Shown here one piece after another: positions 1 to 7,576 of a DNA stretch of 7,596 nucleotides; within the stretch, counting starts at the first letter, position 1; each line of letters opens with the position of its first letter. The notes beneath the pieces were generated by a model that did not search any database, was not told the origin of the DNA, and was given only the letters and a program-made list of their open reading frames with translations. The translations under genes and the position numbers were made by a program. The DNA comes from Naegleria gruberi (Eukaryota): assembly GCA_000004985.1 (NCBI GenBank), contig GG739016.1. One strand, 5' to 3'.

Positions 1-487
1 TCAAACTGATTATTTGAAATTAATTAAATCCGTAAGGGATTAAAACTAGTAACAGTTTTTAGGGAGTTGTTTCTTGCTGCAGTTTTTGATTTAACAATAA
101 AAAATTCTAACCACAATAAAAAAGAACAAAAATTAATTAACAAGATTTACTGTTTTGAAAACACATTCGGCAAAGTGAAACTTTTGGTTTCATTAATACT
201 GTTTCATATGATGGAAAACTTTATTTACACATTAATTATTAACCGAGGAGACCGGCGTGTCACCACCTCATGACGGACTACATCACTATGCTATCTGAGA
301 TTCAGCACTCTGTTTTGCTTAAAGTTTTTAATGTACAATTTTAATGTCACTACCAGAGTAGTTTCTATCAGCCAGGCGAAAACTAGTGTACCGACAAGAA
401 AAAAAAAATGCGACAACAACTGAAGATGAATCTACACAATATCAATCATTACATCAACACCACAAAACGCAAACAAATACGATAATA

Positions 488-1348
488 ATGGATTTCATTG
501 ACTATATGGATTTTGAAGAAGAATCCAATGAACAACAAAACAGTGCTGAAGAAATGTTACTTCTAATGAGACAGCAGCGATATGGAAGAACAGATATCTC
601 TTTGATGGATATTTTACACAATAACACACAAACAATATCCACCAACTTGAACCAATACAAAGAAAGAATAATCAACAATGACCAACAACAATATGAAGAC
701 AACGATGACATTGATGATTTGGATGAAGATGGTGATGTGTTAATGGCAGAGGCTAATACTTATCAACAATGGAGAATCATTGAAGAGAAGTATTGGGATA
801 AATATATAGATATTTGTAAGGATGGATTTAAATCAGAATCCTATGACAAACAAAACTCTGTGGAAAAAGCAATCCTTTTTAGTGCCATCCAACATTTGGG
901 AAGAGTTGCAAGACATAAGGTTTTCAATGCCATGAAACCTGGAAAAGCAAGAATTAGAAAAGATATATTCATTGGAGCAATGGAACCAAGATTGTTTGAT
1001 TATTTTATGAAAGAAGCTGGTGGTGAGAGATCTTTCAGGAGATACACAAAAACACAAGAGGATGGATCAAAATTGCTGCAAGGTTGTGTTGTATATTCAT
1101 TTGAAGGTGAGAAATATCCATATTTCGGAATCAGTGATAATTGGCGAATTAAGTATCATTATGAGGTAGAAGATGATGTTCAATTAATTGTTAGAAAAAG
1201 AGTATCTACAATGACTAGCTGTAAAGTTAAATGCAATGTTGTTTCGTGGGAGGTTAGAATGGATTTAACTTGGAAACGAGAGGTAATGGATGTTATTAAC
1301 TATGATCAAGAAAATGAACAGTATGGAGAGCCAGAACTCTGTGATTAA
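488..1348 (+). CDS. Hypothetical protein, 286 aa from the first ATG (the track ORF begins at a GTG at 386). Acidic, Q/N-rich N-terminal half and a C-terminal half with no domain I recognise
   Basis: It is the longest stop-free frame in the first 1.4 kb. A is at -3 of ATG 488. AATAAA lies 13 nt after the TAA stop at 1361-1366. Codon usage matches that of the transposase ORF. There is no recognisable family motif. It contains acidic stretches such as DNDDIDDLDEDGD and the motif GISDNWRIKYHYEVEDD. Confidence 0.45.
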   Translation: MDFIDYMDFEEESNEQQNSAEEMLLLMRQQRYGRTDISLMDILHNNTQTISTNLNQYKERIINNDQQQYEDNDDIDDLDEDGDVLMAEANTYQQWRIIEEKYWDKYIDICKDGFKSESYDKQNSVEKAILFSAIQHLGRVARHKVFNAMKPGKARIRKDIFIGAMEPRLFDYFMKEAGGERSFRRYTKTQEDGSKLLQGCVVYSFEGEKYPYFGISDNWRIKYHYEVEDDVQLIVRKRVSTMTSCKVKCNVVSWEVRMDLTWKREVMDVINYDQENEQYGEPELCD

Positions 1349-1360
1349 TTGGTAGTAATT

Positions 1361-1366
1361 AATAAA
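1361..1366 (+). terminator. AATAAA polyadenylation-signal hexamer 13 nt after the stop of the 488-1348 ORF
   Basis: Hexamer seen in the sequence. Chance occurrence is plausible in AT-rich DNA. Confidence 0.3.
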
Positions 1367-1630
1367 AAAATTAAAATCGGTTTAAAAAAAATGACAATCA
1401 CTACAACCTTTATTAATTTGTTTCATCCATCAAAATCCAACATACCCAAACCTTTATTGGCGGGCCCCGTCATTAGTAGGCTTTTGGGTTGGAAAATGAT
1501 GCATAAATAATTGGTAAAGGTTGTCACTAAATGGCAGGGAATGGCAAAGCAGGTTCTTCATGGATATGGATTATGTGATGACCATGATGCGGCGATTATT
1601 GTTCCTATTCATTGATGTTTGCTTGTGTGA

Positions 1631-2764
1631 ACTTTGATGACATGTGTCTTTTGGTTCTTGGTTGCCCTGGGTAGACCATCACATCTATCGCAACCTAACA
1701 CAAGTAAATGTGGTGGTGAAAATCTTTTTTCATTTAACCCTTCTACAAACAACAATATTTAAACCGGTTAGTTTTTATTTAAATTTTCAAATTTATTAAT
1801 TAATAATTTGTAAATTAATGTTGGAAAATATAAAGGAATTTTGTTGTGAAAAAGTCCAAACAAATATGTTCTGTTGGTAACAAACACGGGTGCTGTTTAG
1901 TTGACATAAGTTGCCAAGAGTGGTTTATTGGGTGAGAATGTTGTTACTTATTCTAACAGCAATGCTGCATTGACTTTTACTGGTTGTGTTGTTATGGTTG
2001 TCGCAACTCTGTTCTTTTCTCTTTGGATGTATTAATGACAGGAGATGAGATTTTGTTCACCATTCAAACATGGGAAGAAAATCACTTGACCAACACTTTT
2101 GAAATCAAGATTGATCAACAAATTGCTGGAAATGGAAGCTTGTTTGAATTCTTCTCCATCTGTTGTTCCATCAAAGGAAATTGATGATCCAACTGATAAG
2201 AAGCCACTTGGTTGGGTTGATGAAGAATTAATGGATGATCCAGAAGCCAGTAAGCTGGAAGATTGGGATGAAACATTGTCAAGAGAAGAAGAATTTATTT
2301 CAGATCCAGAAGATAACATGTTGGAGGATTGGTTAGAAAATGAACAAGACATGATTCCAGATTCAGAAGCCAAAATGTTGGAATGGGATGAGGATGAAGA
2401 TGGTGCTTGGGAAACTCCAATTGTTGGGAATAAGAAGTGTGAAACTCAACCAAGATTGATTAAAAATCCAGCTTACAGGGGTAAATGGGTTGCTCGAGAT
2501 TAAGAATTCAAGTGTTTGGGCTTCAAAGAAAATCTAAATCCAAATTATTTTGAAGATAAGTAGCTATCAAATCTGTCTGGAAGGATTGGTGTTGTTTTTA
2601 CTGAAATCTGGACCATGCAACAAAATACCTTCTTTGATAACTTTATCATTGCTCACGTTCAGAAAGTTGCTGATTTACAATTGCCAAGATTAATTCAAAC
2701 ACCAACTTTTATTCGTTCCAACCTGTATCAAAGGGTGTTCAGTTGTAGCCTGTGTTGCTTGTGA
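1631..2764 (+). pseudogene. Calnexin-type (calnexin/calreticulin family) ER lectin chaperone pseudogene; intronless, frameshifted, with in-frame stops
   Basis: Collinear similarity to the calnexin luminal domain is recoverable across three reading-frame segments. N-lobe remnant: ...NTSKCGGENLFSFNPS, cf. the conserved CGG-[AG]-YVKLF motif (about 1703-1760). Mid section: [50 protein letters not shown] (frame 1, 1984-2150), cf. calreticulin NYKGKNVLINKDIRCKDDEFTHLYTLIVRPDNTYEVKIDNSQVESGSL. P-domain (frame 2, 2160-2500) has four motif-1 repeats, [10 protein letters not shown] / SKLEDWDE / NMLEDWLE / [11 protein letters not shown], cf. KPEDWDE and KPEGWLDDE. These are followed by motif-2 repeats [17 protein letters not shown] / [11 protein letters not shown] / NLNPNYFED, then GRIGVVFTEIWTMQQNTFFDNFII, cf. 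calnexin NPDFFED...AIGLELWSMTSDIFFDNFII. Four motif-1 repeats plus a Cys in motif 2 indicate the calnexin type rather than calreticulin. The calnexin and calreticulin reference sequences are recalled from memory. Disruptions: stops at 1628 and 1760, a frameshift near 2143-2160, an in-frame TAA at 2501-2503 and TAG at 2561-2563, and an N-terminal lectin lobe that is truncated or unrecognisable. Confidence 0.7.
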
Positions 2765-3164
2765 TGGAGAAACCACAAATGCAGGTGCAGGCTTGACAAA
2801 TGAAATTACCAATACTAATACTCAACAATCACAATTTCTAAAAATATTTTGTACAGGCAAAGTATTGACAATCTTGATTCTGATACTTTCCAGGCAACAA
2901 ATTTTGATGGTGTCGATGATACCATTTTCATTGTCAATATGAACATTTATAACAACAAACCAACGCTCACAACTGCATTAACAATGGCTTCTGGTTATTC
3001 AGTGGATGCCATCTTTTTGACTTCTACTGACTCATTTACTGAAGCAAACATTCCTTCTGCTGATAGAATTGATTTCTCCCTTATCAGTACTGCTTAGCAG
3101 CAAAAGACACTGGTGAAAAGTTCGTTCCTTAAGTTCGTTCGATGTTGGGAAGTGCATTTTCCAT

Positions 3165-3431
3165 TCAATACACTGACATATGGAGGACTAAAGTCCTCAC
3201 ACCTGCATTTGCTACCAACTCAAGGAGCTGCATTAATTGTTTGAATACACCATCCAAATCAGTGACAACATAAGCAAAGAGCTTCACTTGTTGAGAAACA
3301 CATGGAGCTGAAATTTCCATTGATGCAGCAACAATCAGTGCCAACTCACTAAACACTTCCCTGTCAAGCGCAATGCAAGACAGCAGGTACTCCTTATTCA
3401 ATTCTGCTGCTGATTCCAATGGGACTCTCAA
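3165..3431 (-). other. Stop-free protein-like fragment on the minus strand (about 100 aa, no ATG start). A possible terminal exon or a remnant of a decayed gene
   Basis: The translation ...LNKEYLLSCIALDREVFSELALIVAASMEISAPCVSQQVKLFAYVVTDLDGVFKQLMQLLELVANAGVRT has a globular, helical-looking composition, unlike the low-complexity shadow ORFs. It is bounded upstream by TAA. I recognise no family. Confidence 0.2.
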
Positions 3432-4774
3432 TATTAATCTCCTTGCAATCCTTCTGGAACTAATCCATTAACTCTAGTGGAGCTTCCGTCTTTTTCCAAA
3501 TGGCTGGTAAGAGAGTTCAAACTGCACCTATACCATTTCTGATAATTTGTCTGCATCTGGACTGAGACTATCTATCAACCATCCAATTTACAAGTTGGTA
3601 ATGATACATTCACATATTCAGTAGCTGATACATTGGACATTTCTGCGTCGTATGCATTGCAGTGGAAATTACAAGGACTCAAACAGATCCATTTGATCAA
3701 ATTTATGGTGTTCATTGGATATGGTGTGGTTGCAATTTCACAGATGTAGGTACATGACCTGCTCTATAGGAACTGACTGTGTTGGAACTGACAAAATCGT
3801 TCTTAAGTATCACGTTGGTCTTGGTGCCAACAAAATTGCTGCAACTGTCAATATTTACAACTCGAAAGTCATGTTGAATGAATGTGGAGTGGTTTTGTTT
3901 TTGATAAGGAACAAAAACTTTTTTGTTCTTTCAACCTCTGTATGGTCTGTTGTCAGGAATGGTGGAACTTTTCTATGCTTGCTTCATCAGATGCTAATGG
4001 AAATTCCTTGTTGGCTTCAATTAGGAGCATTGTTCACTGTTGTTTGTGGTTTTTCTGCTCACATTACGTCCCAACAAGTGGTTTCATTGGAAGAACTGGT
4101 CTTGCCTTTGTTATGGTCCGCACTGTTAAACATCAATTGCCTTCTGTATAGAGGGGTTCTGATGGGTTGTTGTGAAATTCACTGAAAGTGATGTCAAATT
4201 TGTTTCCACTGTGATTCCAGAATTTGCCAGAGTTGGGATTTCTGCAAATCAAGGAGGAATAAGGTAACATATGATCGTGGTGTACTTGTTTTGCCAAGAG
4301 CTGTGAAATTCTCTTGACGTGACCAAAAAAACCCCTAATCAATCCCAGATGTCCAATTGTTGAGTTGATCTTTAGGATGACTTGAACAGTACAAAATGTT
4401 TCGTTTGGTTGGTTTGTCTGTCACTTTACGAAATTGCATTCATATCTTGCTCATGATGCTCCTCGTTGCCTCACTTGTTGAAGAGAAATTTATTTATCGA
4501 ATCACACAGGACGCCAACTGCTTGTGTGCAAAGCAGATTGTTTTGGTAACGATGCTCGAATCTGATTGCAATCTTCATAGGAATGAGAGGATGAGTGTGA
4601 AGAAATTGCCAAATCATCAGCCAATGCATTTATTAAGCATACGACGAACTCAACTGAGATGCTGTTCTCTCACAGTTGGGCAAATGAATTAGTAACGATA
4701 CTGCATGGCAAATAACAACTCATTAATGGGAGTGGTGAGGTGGTGTTCAACAAAAACAAAGAGCAGCATATTTT

Positions 4775-4787: not shown

Positions 4788-7292
4788 ATGACTCTCTCTA
4801 CTATTGAGAGTTTATTTTCTGTGACAGGTAATGGACAAACAAACACACTTGTTTCTCCATCTGCAAGAATCAGCAGATACAAAACAATCAAAGACTTTGT
4901 TAACATCACCAAGAAACATGGCAATAACAAAGAATTCACTCTAAAAGAATCTCCAATGCAGAAATATTGTTCCAAAGTGGGAGATACATTTTTGTGTCAA
5001 CAAAGAAATAGCAAAGGTAATTCAACAAGTGTGTGTGTTGATGTTGGTGTTGCCAATTTTTCTTCCATGATGTTTAGTGAATCTTTTTTAATGGTCCAAC
5101 CAAAAAAACAAACAAACAATGACACATCCTTGGTGGATTTATTGTCATTGTTCAACATGTTGACACATACATTGCGAGATGAGACAGTTTATGAATTGTT
5201 GTTGCAGCTTTTTTCAAATGATATTGACTTATTCGAAACCTTTTGTAAAGATTTACAAAAGAGAAACGAAAAAGTATCTTCATTATTCATTGCTTTTTCT
5301 GTAAATGTGGTTTCATTTAATTCTTACATCCTTTTGCAAAAAGATAGAATGCGAATTTCAGATAGTCTTTACCATGAGATTCGAATTAGATTCTTTCTTG
5401 AAAAATATTTACCTCCCTTAGATGACTTAAAAGACACAAGAAAAGAAAAAAACATAGAAGTGCTTGGCTTTTATGATGTAAATATTAGATCTGTCAGTTA
5501 TGTAGCCAGTGTTCAGCATGAAAAAGAGCAGATATATGAGGACATTGATGAGCCAGAGGATGCCTGTGAAGATACTTGTCAAAATATTTGTCAAGATAGC
5601 TGTCAGAATATTTCTTCAAATCCTACACAAGACAACCAATCGTCCAACAGTGTTGGTGTTGCAATGAGTATGTCGAGTAATGTGTTGAATGAATCACCTG
5701 TGACGGTAAAAGGAAATAAGAAACAAACGACAGTCGTGTTTGTTAAAAATATTACAAAATTGGTAAAGAGTATTTTGAAATTGGAATTAATCGAAACCAT
5801 CAATAGACAAACAAAAGGAAAAGTTATTTCTGAGAACGATATGGCTTTTTTGGAAAAAGCAACAAAAGAGGCCATTATGAGTTATGGAATGGATCAAAAG
5901 GGTCTTAATGGTTTGACAGTTTTGGGTGTATCTATGCGAGGTTCTAGAGTTTTTAATGCTCAATGTCCCTTTTCAATAATTCCATTGGCCCTATGGAATG
6001 GTAAGGAAAAAGATATTTTATTTATATCAAACATTATAAGGGCAGAGCTTGATGAATTGCGTAAACAGGTAGTGGTTATTGAATACAATGGAAAAAATTA
6101 CAAGTATGAATTAAAAAACAAACTTGTTACTGATTTGTCTGCGTTTAAATATTTAAATGGATGGAGCAGAATTAATTGTCCATTTTGTGATTGTCCAAAC
6201 GCACATAGTTCAATTAAACAGGGATGCACTGTTGTGGAAAGGTCTGGTAACACAGAAATTTCAAATTGTTTAGGATTTGATCATACTGATTTTATAATTT
6301 GTTATTTACATTTACTCGAAAGAATCATTCAACATCTATTAAGGCTTAGTTTAGGTACAGCAGAAGAAAATTTCGATTCTATGGTAAAAGAAATTCAAAT
6401 GGTTTCAACATTAAGAAACTTGATGTTTGAACCAGATGAAAATGGAGATTACAATTTATATCTCACTGGTGACCAATGTGAAGCTCTATTGCAAGGACGT
6501 GCTAAATTTTTTAAAAATTGTCCAAAACATATTCAAGAATTATGGAACGAAGGCAATCACATTCTTGATATATTCAAAAAAGGGCTGAGCAATGGCGATT
6601 ATCAAGATTTCCAATTATCTCTTGATCGTTTCTTCCAGAAATTTAAAAAGTATTCAACAATAGGAAGCTGGTATGTTCACATAATTATGTATCATGGGGT
6701 TGCTTTGTTAAAAACGTATGGAGGCTTGTCAAAATGGAGTGCAGAAGGTTTTGAACATTTTCATAGACTTCTTGAATATATTTTGGAAAATTGTGTGCAA
6801 CATGGAACAAATACAAAAGAGTACTGGTATTTGATGCTTAAAAAACCAACAAAGCCGAGTGATTATCCTCCCCTTCCAACCAAGAATACAGAAATACTTT
6901 CATATACTGACATGGAATTTAGCAGTGATAATCTCAAAAATCCCTCAGAAGAGAGATATGGTAGAAAAGATTTTGGTTGTTCTATTGAGATCTCTGCTGG
7001 GTTAAAGTTGGCTCAAATTTTGGCCTATTTTTTAAGATGTATTCAGTTAACTTTGGATTTGGATGAGTCTTGGAATAGGATTGAGAACAGAACAACAAAA
7101 ACAAAAGAGGAAGAATTTAAAAGAAAGATCGAACTGAACAACAATGAATTCTCAACCAATCCAAATGTTGATGGAGTTAATTCTTGGATAAAGGTTAAAA
7201 GGGTCAAACATTCTAAACAAACAACTCACATTGAAAGCCAACAGGAACAAACCATTCCAACATCTGCCTACAACAAGTTCTATACTTTATAA
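4788..7292 (+). CDS. Transib-superfamily (RAG1-like) DDE transposase; apparently intact, intronless ORF (834 aa from the first ATG; the track ORF starts earlier at a GTG)
   Basis: The translation contains, in the canonical order and spacing of the RAG1 core and Transib transposases: (1) PLALWNGKEKDILFISNIIRAELDEL, cf. RAG1 [27 protein letters not shown] (first catalytic D, nt 6012-6014). (2) VTDLSAFKYLNGWSRINCPFCDCP, cf. RAG1 GYDEK...VYICTLCD (second D at nt 6132-6134, Cys pair at nt 6177-6194). (3) DHTDFIICYLHLLERIIQHL, cf. RAG1 HSITRSHAENLERY. (4) SWYVHIIMYHGVALLKTYGGLSKWSAEGFEHFHRLL, cf. RAG1 [38 protein letters not shown] (H-x4-H zinc pair at nt 6678-6695, catalytic E at nt 6744-6746). 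(5) EYWYLMLKK, cf. RAG1 HHWLYTSKYLQK. The RAG1 sequence is recalled from memory, not from a database search. The ATG at 4788 has an A-rich leader. The ORF ends with a double TAA stop. Confidence 0.8.
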   Translation: MTLSTIESLFSVTGNGQTNTLVSPSARISRYKTIKDFVNITKKHGNNKEFTLKESPMQKYCSKVGDTFLCQQRNSKGNSTSVCVDVGVANFSSMMFSESFLMVQPKKQTNNDTSLVDLLSLFNMLTHTLRDETVYELLLQLFSNDIDLFETFCKDLQKRNEKVSSLFIAFSVNVVSFNSYILLQKDRMRISDSLYHEIRIRFFLEKYLPPLDDLKDTRKEKNIEVLGFYDVNIRSVSYVASVQHEKEQIYEDIDEPEDACEDTCQNICQDSCQNISSNPTQDNQSSNSVGVAMSMSSNVLNESPVTVKGNKKQTTVVFVKNITKLVKSILKLELIETINRQTKGKVISENDMAFLEKATKEAIMSYGMDQKGLNGLTVLGVSMRGSRVFNAQCPFSIIPLALWNGKEKDILFISNIIRAELDELRKQVVVIEYNGKNYKYELKNKLVTDLSAFKYLNGWSRINCPFCDCPNAHSSIKQGCTVVERSGNTEISNCLGFDHTDFIICYLHLLERIIQHLLRLSLGTAEENFDSMVKEIQMVSTLRNLMFEPDENGDYNLYLTGDQCEALLQGRAKFFKNCPKHIQELWNEGNHILDIFKKGLSNGDYQDFQLSLDRFFQKFKKYSTIGSWYVHIIMYHGVALLKTYGGLSKWSAEGFEHFHRLLEYILENCVQHGTNTKEYWYLMLKKPTKPSDYPPLPTKNTEILSYTDMEFSSDNLKNPSEERYGRKDFGCSIEISAGLKLAQILAYFLRCIQLTLDLDESWNRIENRTTKTKEEEFKRKIELNNNEFSTNPNVDGVNSWIKVKRVKHSKQTTHIESQQEQTIPTSAYNKFYTL
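5565..5612 (+). repeat. Imperfect 12-nt tandem repeat x4 inside the transposase ORF (tgtgaagatact / tgtcaaaatatt / tgtcaagatagc / tgtcagaatatt), encoding CEDT-CQNI-CQDS-CQNI
   Basis: Read directly from the sequence. It is in frame and sits in the N-terminal, non-catalytic part of the ORF. Confidence 0.8.
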
Positions 7293-7312: not shown

Positions 7313-7576
7313 ATGGGCAAAGAAGATGTTGTTCTTTGCAACAATAACCACACTGTCAATCTACGTTCTCAAAAAAATAACTACATCAACAAATTTAAAA
7401 AGAAATTTAATGATGGTTCGGAAGATGGTGTATTCTTGGAAACTCTTGGAAAAGCAAAATTCAAAAAAACAAATAGTAATTGGGATACAAATATCAACCA
7501 TACAACGTTTATGATAAATGACAACGGACATCCTGATGTTGTTTTCTTGAAGCAGTTTTTAAAAAATAAATTTTGA
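7313..7576 (+). CDS. Small hypothetical ORF (87 aa) starting 20 nt downstream of the transposase stop. It could be a second element-encoded ORF or spurious
   Basis: An ATG preceded by an A7 run (aaaaaaaATGg). The frame is open for 87 codons and ends with TGA. It is Lys/Asn-rich with no recognisable motif. Confidence 0.25.
   Translation: MGKEDVVLCNNNHTVNLRSQKNNYINKFKKKFNDGSEDGVFLETLGKAKFKKTNSNWDTNINHTTFMINDNGHPDVVFLKQFLKNKF

What the first reader, a model, noticed from the sequence alone, without database searches (positions are those of the whole stretch)
4788..7292. Apparently intact Transib/RAG1-like transposase gene
All hallmark residues of the RAG1-core / Transib transposase fold are present in order: both catalytic Asp, the Cys pair, the His pair with H-x4-H spacing, and the catalytic Glu in a WSAEG motif aligned to RAG1 AWASEGNES (RAG1 recalled from memory). 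They sit in an uninterrupted 2.5-kb ORF with no frameshift or stop. Transib elements are the transposon relatives of the V(D)J recombinase, and most genomic copies are decayed. An intact copy suggests recent activity or domestication. The roughly 400 aa N-terminal to the first Asp show no similarity I can recognise and may carry a lineage-specific DNA-binding module.
Basis: partly seen in the sequence, partly recalled or inferred. Interest (0 to 1): 0.8.

Follow-up and report, generated by a model that had tools for sequence, protein, structure and literature searches.

The report
RAG1-like transposase gene in Naegleria
The 2.5-kb open reading frame is a real, intact gene for a DNA-cutting enzyme built like the antibody-gene recombinase RAG1, and it belongs to a previously unnamed two-gene jumping-DNA family of Naegleria-type amoebae rather than to a proven Transib element.

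Summary
Window 4788-7292 (+) is an uninterrupted 834-codon ORF, identical to Naegleria gruberi EFC35813.1 ("predicted protein"). It has no Pfam hit and no direct PDB sequence hit.

D369, D449, C464/C467, H631/H636 and E656 are conserved in the family and align with RAG1 D708, C727/C730, H937/H942 and E962.

"Transib" is not established. HzTransib is not hit by sequence, and C2C plus H3-4H motifs are shared by the whole CACTA-Mirage-Chapaev-Transib clade.

Relatives have 12-19 nt inverted termini starting CAC(A/T)ACA and no target-site duplication. They carry a conserved ~160-230-aa companion gene directly upstream. Two also carry a Tet-like dioxygenase gene inside the termini.

In the window the companion gene (488-1348) lies 3.4 kb from the transposase, separated partly by a calnexin pseudogene. 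No element ends were found in the contig.

Verdict: new lineage of a known kind, interest moderate.

The parts
4788..7292 (+). Intact 834-aa ORF encoding a RAG1-like DDE transposase (N. gruberi EFC35813.1)
   Evidence: The family HMM scores this ORF at 399.6 bits.
5733..6857 (+). Catalytic core, aa 316-690: RNase H-like domain plus C2 and H2 zinc-binding insertion, modelled
5892..5894 (+). Codon of D369, proposed first catalytic Asp (RAG1 D600 equivalent, inferred)
   Evidence: Conserved 14/14 in the family. It lies on the first beta strand of the model (core residue 54, strand E44-55). Not covered by the HMMER alignment to RAG1.
6132..6134 (+). Codon of D449, second catalytic Asp (aligns with RAG1 D708)
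   Evidence: Conserved 16/16. HMMER aligns 'sDLkal' with RAG1 'YDEKLV'.
6177..6188 (+). C464-x2-C467 (CPFC), aligns with RAG1 C727/C730
   Evidence: 20/20 and 17/19.
6300..6311 (+). C505-x2-H508 (CYLH), an extra conserved pair. The [L/M]H motif is also seen in ESTA (EILHVV).
   Evidence: 22/23 each. ESTA alignment.
6678..6695 (+). H631-x4-H636, aligns with RAG1 H937/H942
   Evidence: 22/22 each. HMMER alignments.
6753..6755 (+). Codon of E656 (GFE), catalytic Glu equivalent to RAG1 E962
   Evidence: 22/22 in the family. Aligned to the Glu of RAG1 GNE, with numbering checked against chain offsets. E653 (6744-6746) is E in 10 and Q in 12 sequences.
4953..5495 (+). N-terminal region, aa 56-236, conserved within the subfamily. 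Helical; a candidate DNA-binding or dimerisation module (inferred).
   Evidence: BLASTP to P0003 residues 61-248, E 3e-13. Helices in the single-sequence model (low confidence).
5247..6668 (+). Internal segment present as a 100%-identical partial copy in EFC35781.1 on a 10,176-bp contig. That copy ends before H631, H636 and E656.
488..1348 (+). Companion gene ORF1 (EFC35811.1, 286 aa; open from 362). Its homologues sit directly upstream of the transposase in five other loci.
   Evidence: A 100%-identical 280-aa copy, EFC43139.1, lies on a 396-kb scaffold.
1500..2761 (+). Calnexin/calreticulin-like pseudogene lying between ORF1 and the transposase
   Evidence: Pfam PF00262 E 2.7e-32, with the C-terminal end of the model at 2564-2761. 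There is a frameshift near 2150 and in-frame stops at 2501-2503 and about 2561-2563 inside collinear homology.
2762..4715 (.). Spacer of higher G+C (0.37-0.41) with no recognisable gene
348..361 (+). Candidate left terminus CACTACCAGAGTAG, 140 nt upstream of the ORF1 ATG. Unverified; no partner found in the contig.
   Evidence: In relatives the left terminus lies 129-299 nt upstream of ORF1.
1399..4174 (.). Weak candidate for a nested non-autonomous element bounded by CACTACAACC (+) and CACAACAACC (-), carrying the calnexin pseudogene
   Evidence: Below the 12/16 threshold of the scan, so close to chance.

Best explanation
The ORF encodes the transposase of a cut-and-paste DNA transposon family found so far in heterolobosean amoebae (Naegleria, Willaertia) and in related metagenome contigs. 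The enzyme has the RAG1-type architecture: an RNase H-like domain carrying D369 and D449, an all-helical insertion that would hold a zinc ion through C464/C467 and H631/H636, and the third catalytic residue E656 on the helix after the insertion.

By analogy with RAG1, ProtoRAG and HzTransib, it is expected to nick the element ends, form hairpins on the flanking DNA, and then join the freed 3'-OH ends to a target. These chemical steps are inferred, not shown.

The canonical element, seen in relatives, has this layout:
- a terminal inverted repeat beginning CAC(A/T)ACA;
- about 130-300 nt of spacer;
- a companion gene of about 160-230 aa (ORF1);
- 15-131 nt of spacer;
- the transposase;
- optional cargo (a Tet-like dioxygenase in one subfamily);
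- the second inverted repeat.

The family belongs to the RAG1/Transib-CACTA-Mirage-Chapaev (CMCT) clade. In its H-x4-H motif and its profile score it is closer to RAG1/RAG1L than to a fungal EnSpm-like element, but it cannot be assigned to Transib proper.

The copy in this window keeps both genes open. Its structure is nonetheless atypical: 3.4 kb, including a decayed calnexin copy, separates ORF1 from the transposase, and the ends were not found in the contig. It may therefore be a young but rearranged copy.
For: Real ORF.

Homology to RAG1:
- Family profile against PDB sequences: only RAG1L (E 3.1e-7 and 3.4e-6) and RAG1 (down to 7.7e-6).
- AF2 core model: pLDDT 87.8.
- Foldseek: top 44 hits are RAG1, BbRAGL or HzTransib, E 9e-10 to 5.7e-6. 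The next hit is Hermes at 2e-3.
- Catalytic and zinc residues are invariant in the family and sit on the expected secondary-structure elements.

Mobile-element nature:
- Inverted termini in relatives: L002 51/3469, 12/13 identical; L003 4663/11174, 15/16; L006 45/4745, 18/19 plus a second block; L007 9177/17238, 14/15.
- The same 16-mer ends L003's left arm and starts contig L005.
- Contig L006 stops 44 and 41 nt outside its termini.
- Each genome holds several divergent lineages in different gene neighbourhoods.
- One member carries a fused Ulp1 protease domain.
- The N. gruberi genome holds 100%-identical partial copies of both window genes.

Companion gene: homologous ORF1 lies directly upstream in L002, L003, L005, L006 and L007, and in the window.

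Closer to RAG1 than to an EnSpm-like element: the family HMM scores BbRAG1L at 30.7 bits and mouse RAG1 at 24.8 bits. The equivalent H..H..E exon of the fungal ESTA-10_MLP scores 9 bits and has H-x3-H.
Against: - No terminal inverted repeat pair and no target-site duplication could be found in the window itself.
- None of the four relatives with both ends shows a 2-9 bp target duplication. That is unusual for this clade and leaves the exact ends uncertain.
- Each short inverted repeat is only moderately significant on its own in AT-rich DNA.
- ORF1 and the transposase are not adjacent here.
- Only one full-length transposase copy is annotated in N. gruberi.
- No transcription or activity data exist.
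- No reference set of Transib, Chapaev, Mirage or EnSpm proteins was available, so placement inside the clade rests on one fungal comparator, PDB chains and motif spacing.
- AlphaFold was trained on RAG1 structures, which could inflate the resemblance. The profile-sequence hit is independent of that.
Confidence: 0.75

Rival explanations
1. It is a true member of the Transib superfamily in the strict sense: the same lineage as insect Transib and the ancestor of RAG1.
For: - RAG1-type fold and zinc/catalytic residues.
- H-x4-H spacing and H-to-E distance identical to RAG1.
- Better profile score to RAG1/RAG1L than to a fungal EnSpm-like transposase.
- Termini beginning CACA, like the Transib CACAATG heptamer.
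- True Transib proteins can also lack InterPro hits, and their target duplications vary.
Against: - HzTransib is not hit by the family profile at E<=10 and is a weaker structural match than RAG1.
- No 5-bp target duplication in relatives.
- The termini CACTACA(A) of L006 and L007 match the CACTA type.
- The companion ORF1 is unknown in Transib.
- No phylogeny was possible.
Confidence: 0.25
2. It is a CACTA/EnSpm-type (CMC) element: a two-gene transposon with CACTA termini whose transposase resembles RAG1 only because all members of the wider clade do.
For: - Termini CACTACAGGG (L006) and CACTACAATTTA (L007).
- From my own knowledge, maize En/Spm ends read CACTACAAGAAAA and En/Spm encodes two proteins.
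- A Ulp1 protease fusion occurs in one member.
- Tet cargo is found, as in fungal EnSpm, ESTA and Plavaka elements.
Against: - No member matches Pfam Transposase_21 or any other CACTA-transposase core model, even at E<=10. One member gives a weak, sub-threshold match to Transposase_23 (TNP1/EN/SPM), E 0.0013.
- The family has H-x4-H, whereas the one EnSpm-like element tested has H-x3-H and scores only 9 bits.
- No 3-bp target duplication.
- Gene order (small ORF first) differs from En/Spm.
Confidence: 0.2
3. It is a domesticated host gene: a RAG1-like nuclease, together with ORF1, kept by heteroloboseans for a cellular function and no longer mobile.
For: - The ORF is intact with every catalytic residue.
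- No inverted termini were found in the window.
- Only one full-length copy is annotated.
- The family is conserved across genera.
Against: - Relatives are bounded by inverted repeats.
- Neighbouring genes differ between loci.
- Several highly divergent paralogues occur per genome.
- Identical fragments are scattered on other scaffolds.
- In this locus the gene sits next to a pseudogene and featureless DNA.
Confidence: 0.1
4. The copy is an immobile remnant: a recently duplicated, rearranged piece whose ORF is open only because too little time has passed for it to decay.
For: - ORF1 and the transposase are 3.4 kb apart instead of 15-131 nt.
- A calnexin pseudogene lies between them.
- No ends are present in the contig.
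- The other copies are fragments, 100% identical, so duplication was recent.
Against: - Both ORFs are fully open, and the transposase could act in trans on other copies.
- The right end may simply lie beyond the contig, which stops 304 nt after the stop codon. In relatives the right end lies 239-4523 nt after it.
Confidence: 0.35

Closest known systems
RAG1 core / amphioxus ProtoRAG RAG1L (PDB 4wwx, 6dbi, 6b40)
   Same: - Same order of residues: D, D, C-x2-C, [L]H, H-x4-H, then E 20 residues after the second His.
- It is the only protein family hit by the family profile in the PDB.
   Different: - 11-14% identity.
- No RAG1 N-terminal RING or Chapa zinc domains were detected.
- There is no RAG2-like kelch or PHD partner. 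The partner here is an unrelated small protein encoded upstream on the same strand.
- The host is a discoban amoeba, not an animal.
Transib transposons (HzTransib, PDB 6pqn/6pqx)
   Same: - Cut-and-paste DDE transposase of RAG1 type.
- Foldseek E 1.3e-6, TM 0.57, 16% identity.
- Termini begin CAC(A).
   Different: - Not detected by the family sequence profile.
- Canonical Transib makes 5-bp target duplications and has a CACAATG heptamer. Relatives here show no duplication and read CACAACA or CACTACA.
- Transib has a single gene.
CACTA/EnSpm and the wider CMC group
   Same: - CACTACA-type termini in L006 and L007.
- More than one gene per element.
- C(2)C and His-pair motifs.
- Occasional Ulp1 protease fusion.
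   Different: - No match to a Pfam CACTA-transposase core model (Transposase_21); only one weak, sub-threshold Transposase_23 match.
- H-x4-H instead of the H-x3-H seen in the EnSpm-like ESTA element, which scores only 9 bits.
- No 2-4 bp target duplication seen.
Fungal TET/JBP-carrying transposons of the CMCT clade (ESTA, Plavaka, TET+ EnSpm; Kojima 2025, PMC12730594)
   Same: In two relatives (L003 Naegleria-like, L007 Willaertia magna) a Tet-like dioxygenase gene lies inside the inverted termini. In L003 it matches NgTet1 (PDB 5cg8) at E 2.7e-12; in L007 a tblastn match to an NgTet1 fragment gives E 1.2e-5.
   Different: The host is a protist, not a fungus. The window copy has no Tet gene. 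The transposase is far from ESTA in sequence.

Membership tests
RAG1-core-type transposase fold | RNase H-like domain with an inserted helical zinc-binding module, superposable on RAG1 | tested here: met
   [not shown]
RAG1-core-type transposase fold | D, D, E triad and the C2/H2 zinc ligands at positions equivalent to RAG1 D600/D708/E962 and C727/C730/H937/H942 | tested here: met
   HMMER alignments cover D708, C727, C730, H937, H942 and E962. All are invariant or nearly so in the family. D369 = D600 is inferred only from conservation and its place on strand 1.
CMCT clade (EnSpm/CACTA-Mirage-Chapaev-Transib, Kojima 2025) | [quoted passage not shown] | tested here: met
   C464-x2-C467 and H631-x4-H636 lie between D449 and E656. 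Definition taken from PMC12730594.
CMCT clade (EnSpm/CACTA-Mirage-Chapaev-Transib, Kojima 2025) | Termini 5'-CA..TG-3' | tested here: met
   Met in relatives L002, L003, L006 and L007, all CAC(A/T)ACA...TGT(A/T)GTG. Not found for the window copy.
CMCT clade (EnSpm/CACTA-Mirage-Chapaev-Transib, Kojima 2025) | Target-site duplication of 2-5 bp | tested here: not met
   No direct repeat of 2-9 bp flanks the termini in L002, L003, L006 or L007. The flanks of the two metagenome contigs may be chimeric. Not testable in the window.
Transib superfamily (strict sense) | Transposase groups with Transib/RAG1 in a phylogeny or by significant sequence similarity to Transib proteins | tested here: inconclusive
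   The profile hits RAG1L and RAG1 but not HzTransib at E<=10. It scores higher to RAG1 than to one EnSpm-like element. No reference set was available for a tree.
Transib superfamily (strict sense) | 5-bp target-site duplication | tested here: not met
   None in four relatives. The window was not testable. TSD length is variable in some Transib lineages.
Transib superfamily (strict sense) | RSS-like inverted repeats with a CACAATG-like heptamer | tested here: inconclusive
   Termini read CACAACA or CACTACA, sharing 4-5 of 7 bases with CACAATG. No heptamer-spacer-nonamer analysis was done.
CACTA/EnSpm superfamily | CACTA termini with a 3-bp target duplication | tested here: inconclusive
   CACTA termini occur in L006 and L007, but CACAA in L002, L003 and L005. 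There is no 3-bp duplication.
CACTA/EnSpm superfamily | Transposase matching the CACTA transposase models (Pfam Transposase_21 and relatives) | tested here: not met
   None of 25 family members matches Transposase_21, even at E<=10. One member gives a weak, sub-threshold Transposase_23 (TNP1/EN/SPM) match at E 0.0013. The ESTA comparator scores 9 bits.
RAG/ProtoRAG two-gene system | RAG2-like partner (kelch beta-propeller with or without a PHD finger) encoded next to RAG1-like | tested here: not met
   The partner ORF1 has a conserved region of only about 160 aa and gives no Pfam or PDB hit. No kelch gene is present in any locus.
TET/JBP-carrying DNA transposons | Tet/JBP dioxygenase gene inside the element's termini | tested here: not met
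   No Tet-like sequence in the window. Met in relatives L003 (9906-10925) and L007 (16029-17077).

The most novel reading that the evidence does not exclude
The heterolobosean family is a deep, previously unrecognised sister lineage of RAG1/Transib, sharing the H-x4-H signature, and it works as an obligate two-protein system. Its small upstream partner (ORF1) would play a role analogous to RAG2 or TnpA. Its elements insert without making a target-site duplication. One branch has independently captured a Tet dioxygenase, as fungal transposons have. That would extend RAG1-type recombinases with a dedicated partner to Discoba, and would give a second, independent example of Tet-carrying transposons.
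Probability: 0.25. Interest if true: 0.75.

Novelty: new variant of a known kind. Interest (0 to 1): 0.55.

Why it matters
RAG1, the enzyme that assembles antibody and T-cell receptor genes, descends from a transposase. Its known transposon relatives (Transib, ProtoRAG, Chapaev) are described mostly from animals.

The protein here has a confidently RAG1-like core and belongs to a family with only about 28 detectable relatives among 1.84 billion representative proteins. All of those relatives are unannotated.

The family comes from a discoban amoeba lineage, with its own termini, a conserved partner gene and in some members a Tet dioxygenase cargo. This widens the known host range and architecture of this enzyme clade.

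It also offers compact (3.4-8 kb) natural elements for studying how such transposases use partner proteins. It is not evidence for anything like V(D)J recombination in amoebae.

Tried and rejected
- Pfam on the ORF: 0 families at E<=1. Pfam on 25 relatives at E<=10: no RAG1 model and no Transposase_21.
- phmmer of the single protein against PDB sequences: nothing.
- Word-indexed protein search: only the protein itself and one paralogue. With the core profile: 2 hits.
- Single-sequence AlphaFold: pLDDT 33.7, unusable.
- The afdb50 fold library was not available, so no comparison with predicted CACTA, Chapaev or Mirage structures was possible.
With profile A4 it found nothing in metagenome contigs or viral contigs.
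- N. gruberi contigs for EFC35781, EFC43139, EFC35667 and the window protein are not in the gene-position index. Copy boundaries in the source genome could therefore not be mapped.
- Inverted-repeat and target-duplication scans of the window gave only chance-level pairs.
- The ORF1 profile gave no PDB or Pfam match and is not fused to any family transposase.
- The Iyer et al. and Yuan & Wessler papers are not held.
- No supplementary alignment of Transib or CMC cores is held.
- I considered reading the calnexin-like stretch as a normal intron-containing host gene. I rejected this because the stops and the frameshift lie inside collinear homology.
Full report
**1. The observation**

The window is a complete 7596-bp contig of Naegleria gruberi. 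The translation of 4788-7292 is 100% identical over all 834 residues to EFC35813.1 / NAEGRDRAFT_82344, annotated "predicted protein", whose longest contig is 7596 bp.

The ORF starts at ATG 4788 and ends at TAA 7290-7292. The frame is open from 4716, after the stop at 4711-4713. With this window's stop-codon frequency the chance of 858 open codons is about 3e-21. The longest open frame in 200 shuffles was 167 aa.

**2. What the protein is**

Simple searches fail. Pfam gives no family at E<=1, and phmmer against all PDB chain sequences gives nothing relevant. An exhaustive phmmer search of 1.84 billion representative proteins found 28 proteins at E<=0.001 (the query protein and its N. gruberi paralogue among them), 12 of them at E<=1e-10.

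The named homologues come from N. gruberi and Willaertia magna; the rest are metagenome or read-assembly proteins. All are "hypothetical".

A profile built from 25 of these sequences hits only RAG1-family chains among 177,635 distinct PDB sequences. Amphioxus RAG1L (6b40) scores E 3.1e-7, and mouse or zebrafish RAG1 score down to 6e-5. With the core-only profile the values are 3.4e-6 and 7.7e-6.

The HMMER alignment places:
- the family's Y-x-H-x4-H...G-x-E on RAG1 YFHKTLAH...EGNE;
- more weakly, the family's sDL...CpyC on RAG1 YDEK...CTLC.

Chain offsets confirm that these are H937, H942, E962, D708, C727 and C730.

An AlphaFold2 model of residues 316-690, made with the 22-sequence alignment and no templates, has pLDDT 87.8 and pTM 0.86.
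- Foldseek against the PDB returns RAG1, BbRAGL and HzTransib as the top 44 hits (E 9e-10 to 5.7e-6, query TM 0.44-0.67). The next family is Hermes at E 2e-3.

In the model D369 lies on the first strand, D449 just after the long fourth strand, and H631, H636 and E656 on helices after the insertion. That is what a RAG1-type active site requires.

Conservation in the family:

| Residue | Conserved |
|---|---|
| D369 | 14/14 |
| D449 | 16/16 |
| C464 | 20/20 |
| C467 | 17/19 |
| C505 | 22/23 |
| H508 | 22/23 |
| H631 | 22/22 |
| H636 | 22/22 |
| E656 | 22/22 |

The catalytic Glu is therefore E656, three residues further on.

**3. Is it Transib?**

The motif set does not decide this. [quoted passage not shown]

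To my knowledge the PDB holds no CACTA, Mirage or Chapaev transposase, so RAG1 would be the best PDB hit for any member of that clade. The AlphaFold-database library that could have tested this was unavailable.

Two partial tests were possible.

First, HzTransib, the solved true Transib, is not hit by the family profile even at E<=10. It is also a weaker structural match than RAG1.

Second, I took the fungal EnSpm-like element ESTA-10_MLP from the supplement of PMC12730594 and scored its reading frames with the family HMM.
- Its H..H..E exon (FHMLVHL...TEKNES, H-x3-H) scores 9 bits.
- The same region scores 30.7 bits in BbRAG1L and 24.8 bits in mouse RAG1, both with H-x4-H as in the Naegleria family.

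So the family is nearer RAG1/RAG1L than to that EnSpm-like lineage. Membership in Transib proper remains unproven.

**4. Surroundings and relatives: a two-gene element with defined ends**

I fetched the contigs of six relatives. In five independent loci a small ORF lies directly upstream of the transposase on the same strand:

| Locus | ORF1 | Transposase |
|---|---|---|
| L002 | 350-841 | 951-3230 |
| L003 | 4871-5509 | 5641-8784 |
| L005 | 200-889 | 905-3847 |
| L006 | 308-958 | 1022-3157 |
| L007 (W. magna) | 9306-9947 | 10001-12715 |

These small proteins are homologous to one another and to window ORF 386/488-1348. BLASTP gives window vs L002 1e-15, vs L006 2e-9, vs L005 2e-5, and L003 vs L007 1e-18. 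An HMM of the six finds exactly these ORFs in all loci at E<=1e-58.

N. gruberi's second lineage also has the pair side by side: EFC35668.1 and EFC35667.1 on one 8206-bp contig. ORF1 has no Pfam or PDB match and is never fused to the transposase. Its function is unknown. I infer an accessory role, such as DNA binding or regulation.

The relatives have terminal inverted repeats:

| Locus | Termini | Match | Element size |
|---|---|---|---|
| L006 | CACTACAGGGTAC(A/C)CCAGC at 45 and 4745 | 18/19, plus a second shared block | 4.7 kb; the contig stops 44 and 41 nt outside them |
| L003 | CACAACAAATTA(A/G)CGG at 4663 and 11174 | 15/16 | 6.5 kb |
| L007 | CACTACAATTTA(G/A)CA at 9177 and 17238 | 14/15 | 8.06 kb |
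| L002 | CACAACACC(C/T)TTA at 51 and 3469 | 12/13 | 3.4 kb |

In addition, contig L005 begins with the same 16-mer as L003's left end.

Each left end lies 129-299 nt upstream of ORF1. The shared start CAC(A/T)ACA fits the CA..TG rule of the clade. It resembles both the Transib/RSS heptamer (CACAATG / CACAGTG) and, from memory, the En/Spm end CACTACAAGAAAA.

No 2-9 bp target-site duplication flanks any of the four elements with both ends. I cannot explain this. The two metagenome contigs may have chimeric flanks, but L007 comes from a genome assembly.

In L003 the gene at 9906-10925, inside the termini, is a Tet-like dioxygenase (E 2.7e-12 to NgTet1, PDB 5cg8). L007 has a Tet-like gene at 16029-17077, also inside its termini. 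This parallels the fungal Tet-carrying transposons of the same clade. One metagenome member has a C-terminal Ulp1 protease domain.

**5. The copy in the window**

ORF1 (488-1348, EFC35811.1) and the transposase are both open. They are 3.4 kb apart instead of 15-131 nt.

The spacer holds a calnexin/calreticulin-like sequence at about 1500-2761 (Pfam PF00262, E 2.7e-32). It has a frameshift near 2150 and two in-frame stops inside collinear homology, so it is a pseudogene. After it come 2 kb of higher-G+C DNA with no recognisable gene.

No inverted-repeat pair encloses the genes. A possible left end, CACTACCAGAGTAG at 348, lies at the expected distance from ORF1. The right end would be expected beyond the contig, which stops 304 nt after the stop codon.

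Elsewhere in N. gruberi there are two identical partial copies:
- a 100%-identical 280-aa ORF1 copy on a 396-kb scaffold (EFC43139.1);
- a 100%-identical internal transposase fragment (window 5247-6668) inside a chimeric gene model on a 10,176-bp contig, ending just before H631.

These show recent duplication, but not necessarily transposition. No other full-length copy is annotated.

**6. Mechanism**

Shown:
- the fold;
- the conserved active-site and zinc residues;
- the inverted termini, partner gene and cargo in relatives.

Inferred from the biochemistry of RAG1/2, ProtoRAG and HzTransib (named in the PDB entries and):
- the enzyme pairs two ends, nicks them, forms hairpins on the flanking DNA and integrates the 3'-OH ends;
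- ORF1 assists.

Whether this particular copy can still move is open.

**7. Novelty and verdict**

In the literature I could search, no paper links RAG1-like or Transib transposases with Naegleria. Repbase could not be consulted, so an existing entry cannot be excluded.

I classify it as a new variant of a known kind. It is a heterolobosean lineage of the RAG1/Transib-CMC clade with a conserved partner gene, CAC(A/T)ACA termini, no visible target duplication and, in one branch, Tet cargo.

Interest is moderate (0.55), and would be higher if the partner protein and the missing target duplication prove real.

Noticed in passing
window 488-1348 (+): ORF1 (EFC35811.1, 286 aa) belongs to a conserved, unannotated protein family. 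Its members are encoded directly upstream of the RAG1-like transposase in five other loci. There is no Pfam or PDB match.
   Followed up: yes
window ~1500-2761 (+): Calnexin/calreticulin-like sequence with a frameshift near 2150 and in-frame stops at 2501-2503 and about 2561-2563 inside collinear homology. It is a pseudogene, possibly a captured host fragment. An annotated gene model (EFC35812, by accession order) probably covers it.
   Followed up: partly
L003 9906-10925 (-) and L007 16029-17077 (+): Tet-like dioxygenase genes lie inside the inverted termini of two related elements. The L003 gene matches NgTet1 (PDB 5cg8) at E 2.7e-12. This suggests Tet-carrying transposons in heteroloboseans like those described in fungi.
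   Followed up: partly
L002, L003, L006, L007 termini: None of the four elements with both ends shows a target-site duplication of 2-9 bp. The right flanks of L003 and L007, and of window position 1848, all begin with (G)AAAAAG.
   Followed up: partly
window 1399-1408 (+), 1839-1848 (-), 4165-4174 (-): Family-type terminal heptamers CAC(A/T)ACA occur inside the ORF1-transposase spacer (CACTACAACC, CACAACAAAA, CACAACAACC). They may be the ends of a nested non-autonomous element, but the match is close to chance.
   Followed up: partly
window 348-388 (+): A 41-nt stretch upstream of ORF1 starts with CACTAC and ends with CTAGTG. Its start is the candidate left terminus of the element.
   Followed up: no
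window 7313-7576 (+): A lysine- and asparagine-rich 87-aa ORF begins 21 nt after the transposase stop. It has no Pfam match and no clear homologue downstream of the related transposases.
   Followed up: partly
window 2762-4715: About 2 kb of higher G+C (0.37-0.41), with negative GC skew in its first half. It contains only short ORFs on both strands and no domain hits, so its origin is unknown.
   Followed up: partly
P0014 residues 1155-1250: A 1290-aa family member from a read assembly has a C-terminal Ulp1 (Peptidase_C48) domain fused to the transposase (E 1.8e-7).
   Followed up: no
L004 1-22 and its last 23 bases: Both ends of this Logan contig carry the Illumina adapter sequence CTACACGACGCTCTTCCGATCT, which is an assembly artefact. 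L004 otherwise duplicates part of L003 from the same sequencing run.
   Followed up: no
L001 11255-12724: The Willaertia magna P0008 locus has only a roughly 490-aa open stretch matching the transposase core and no ORF1. It is probably a degraded copy buried in an intron-containing gene model.
   Followed up: no
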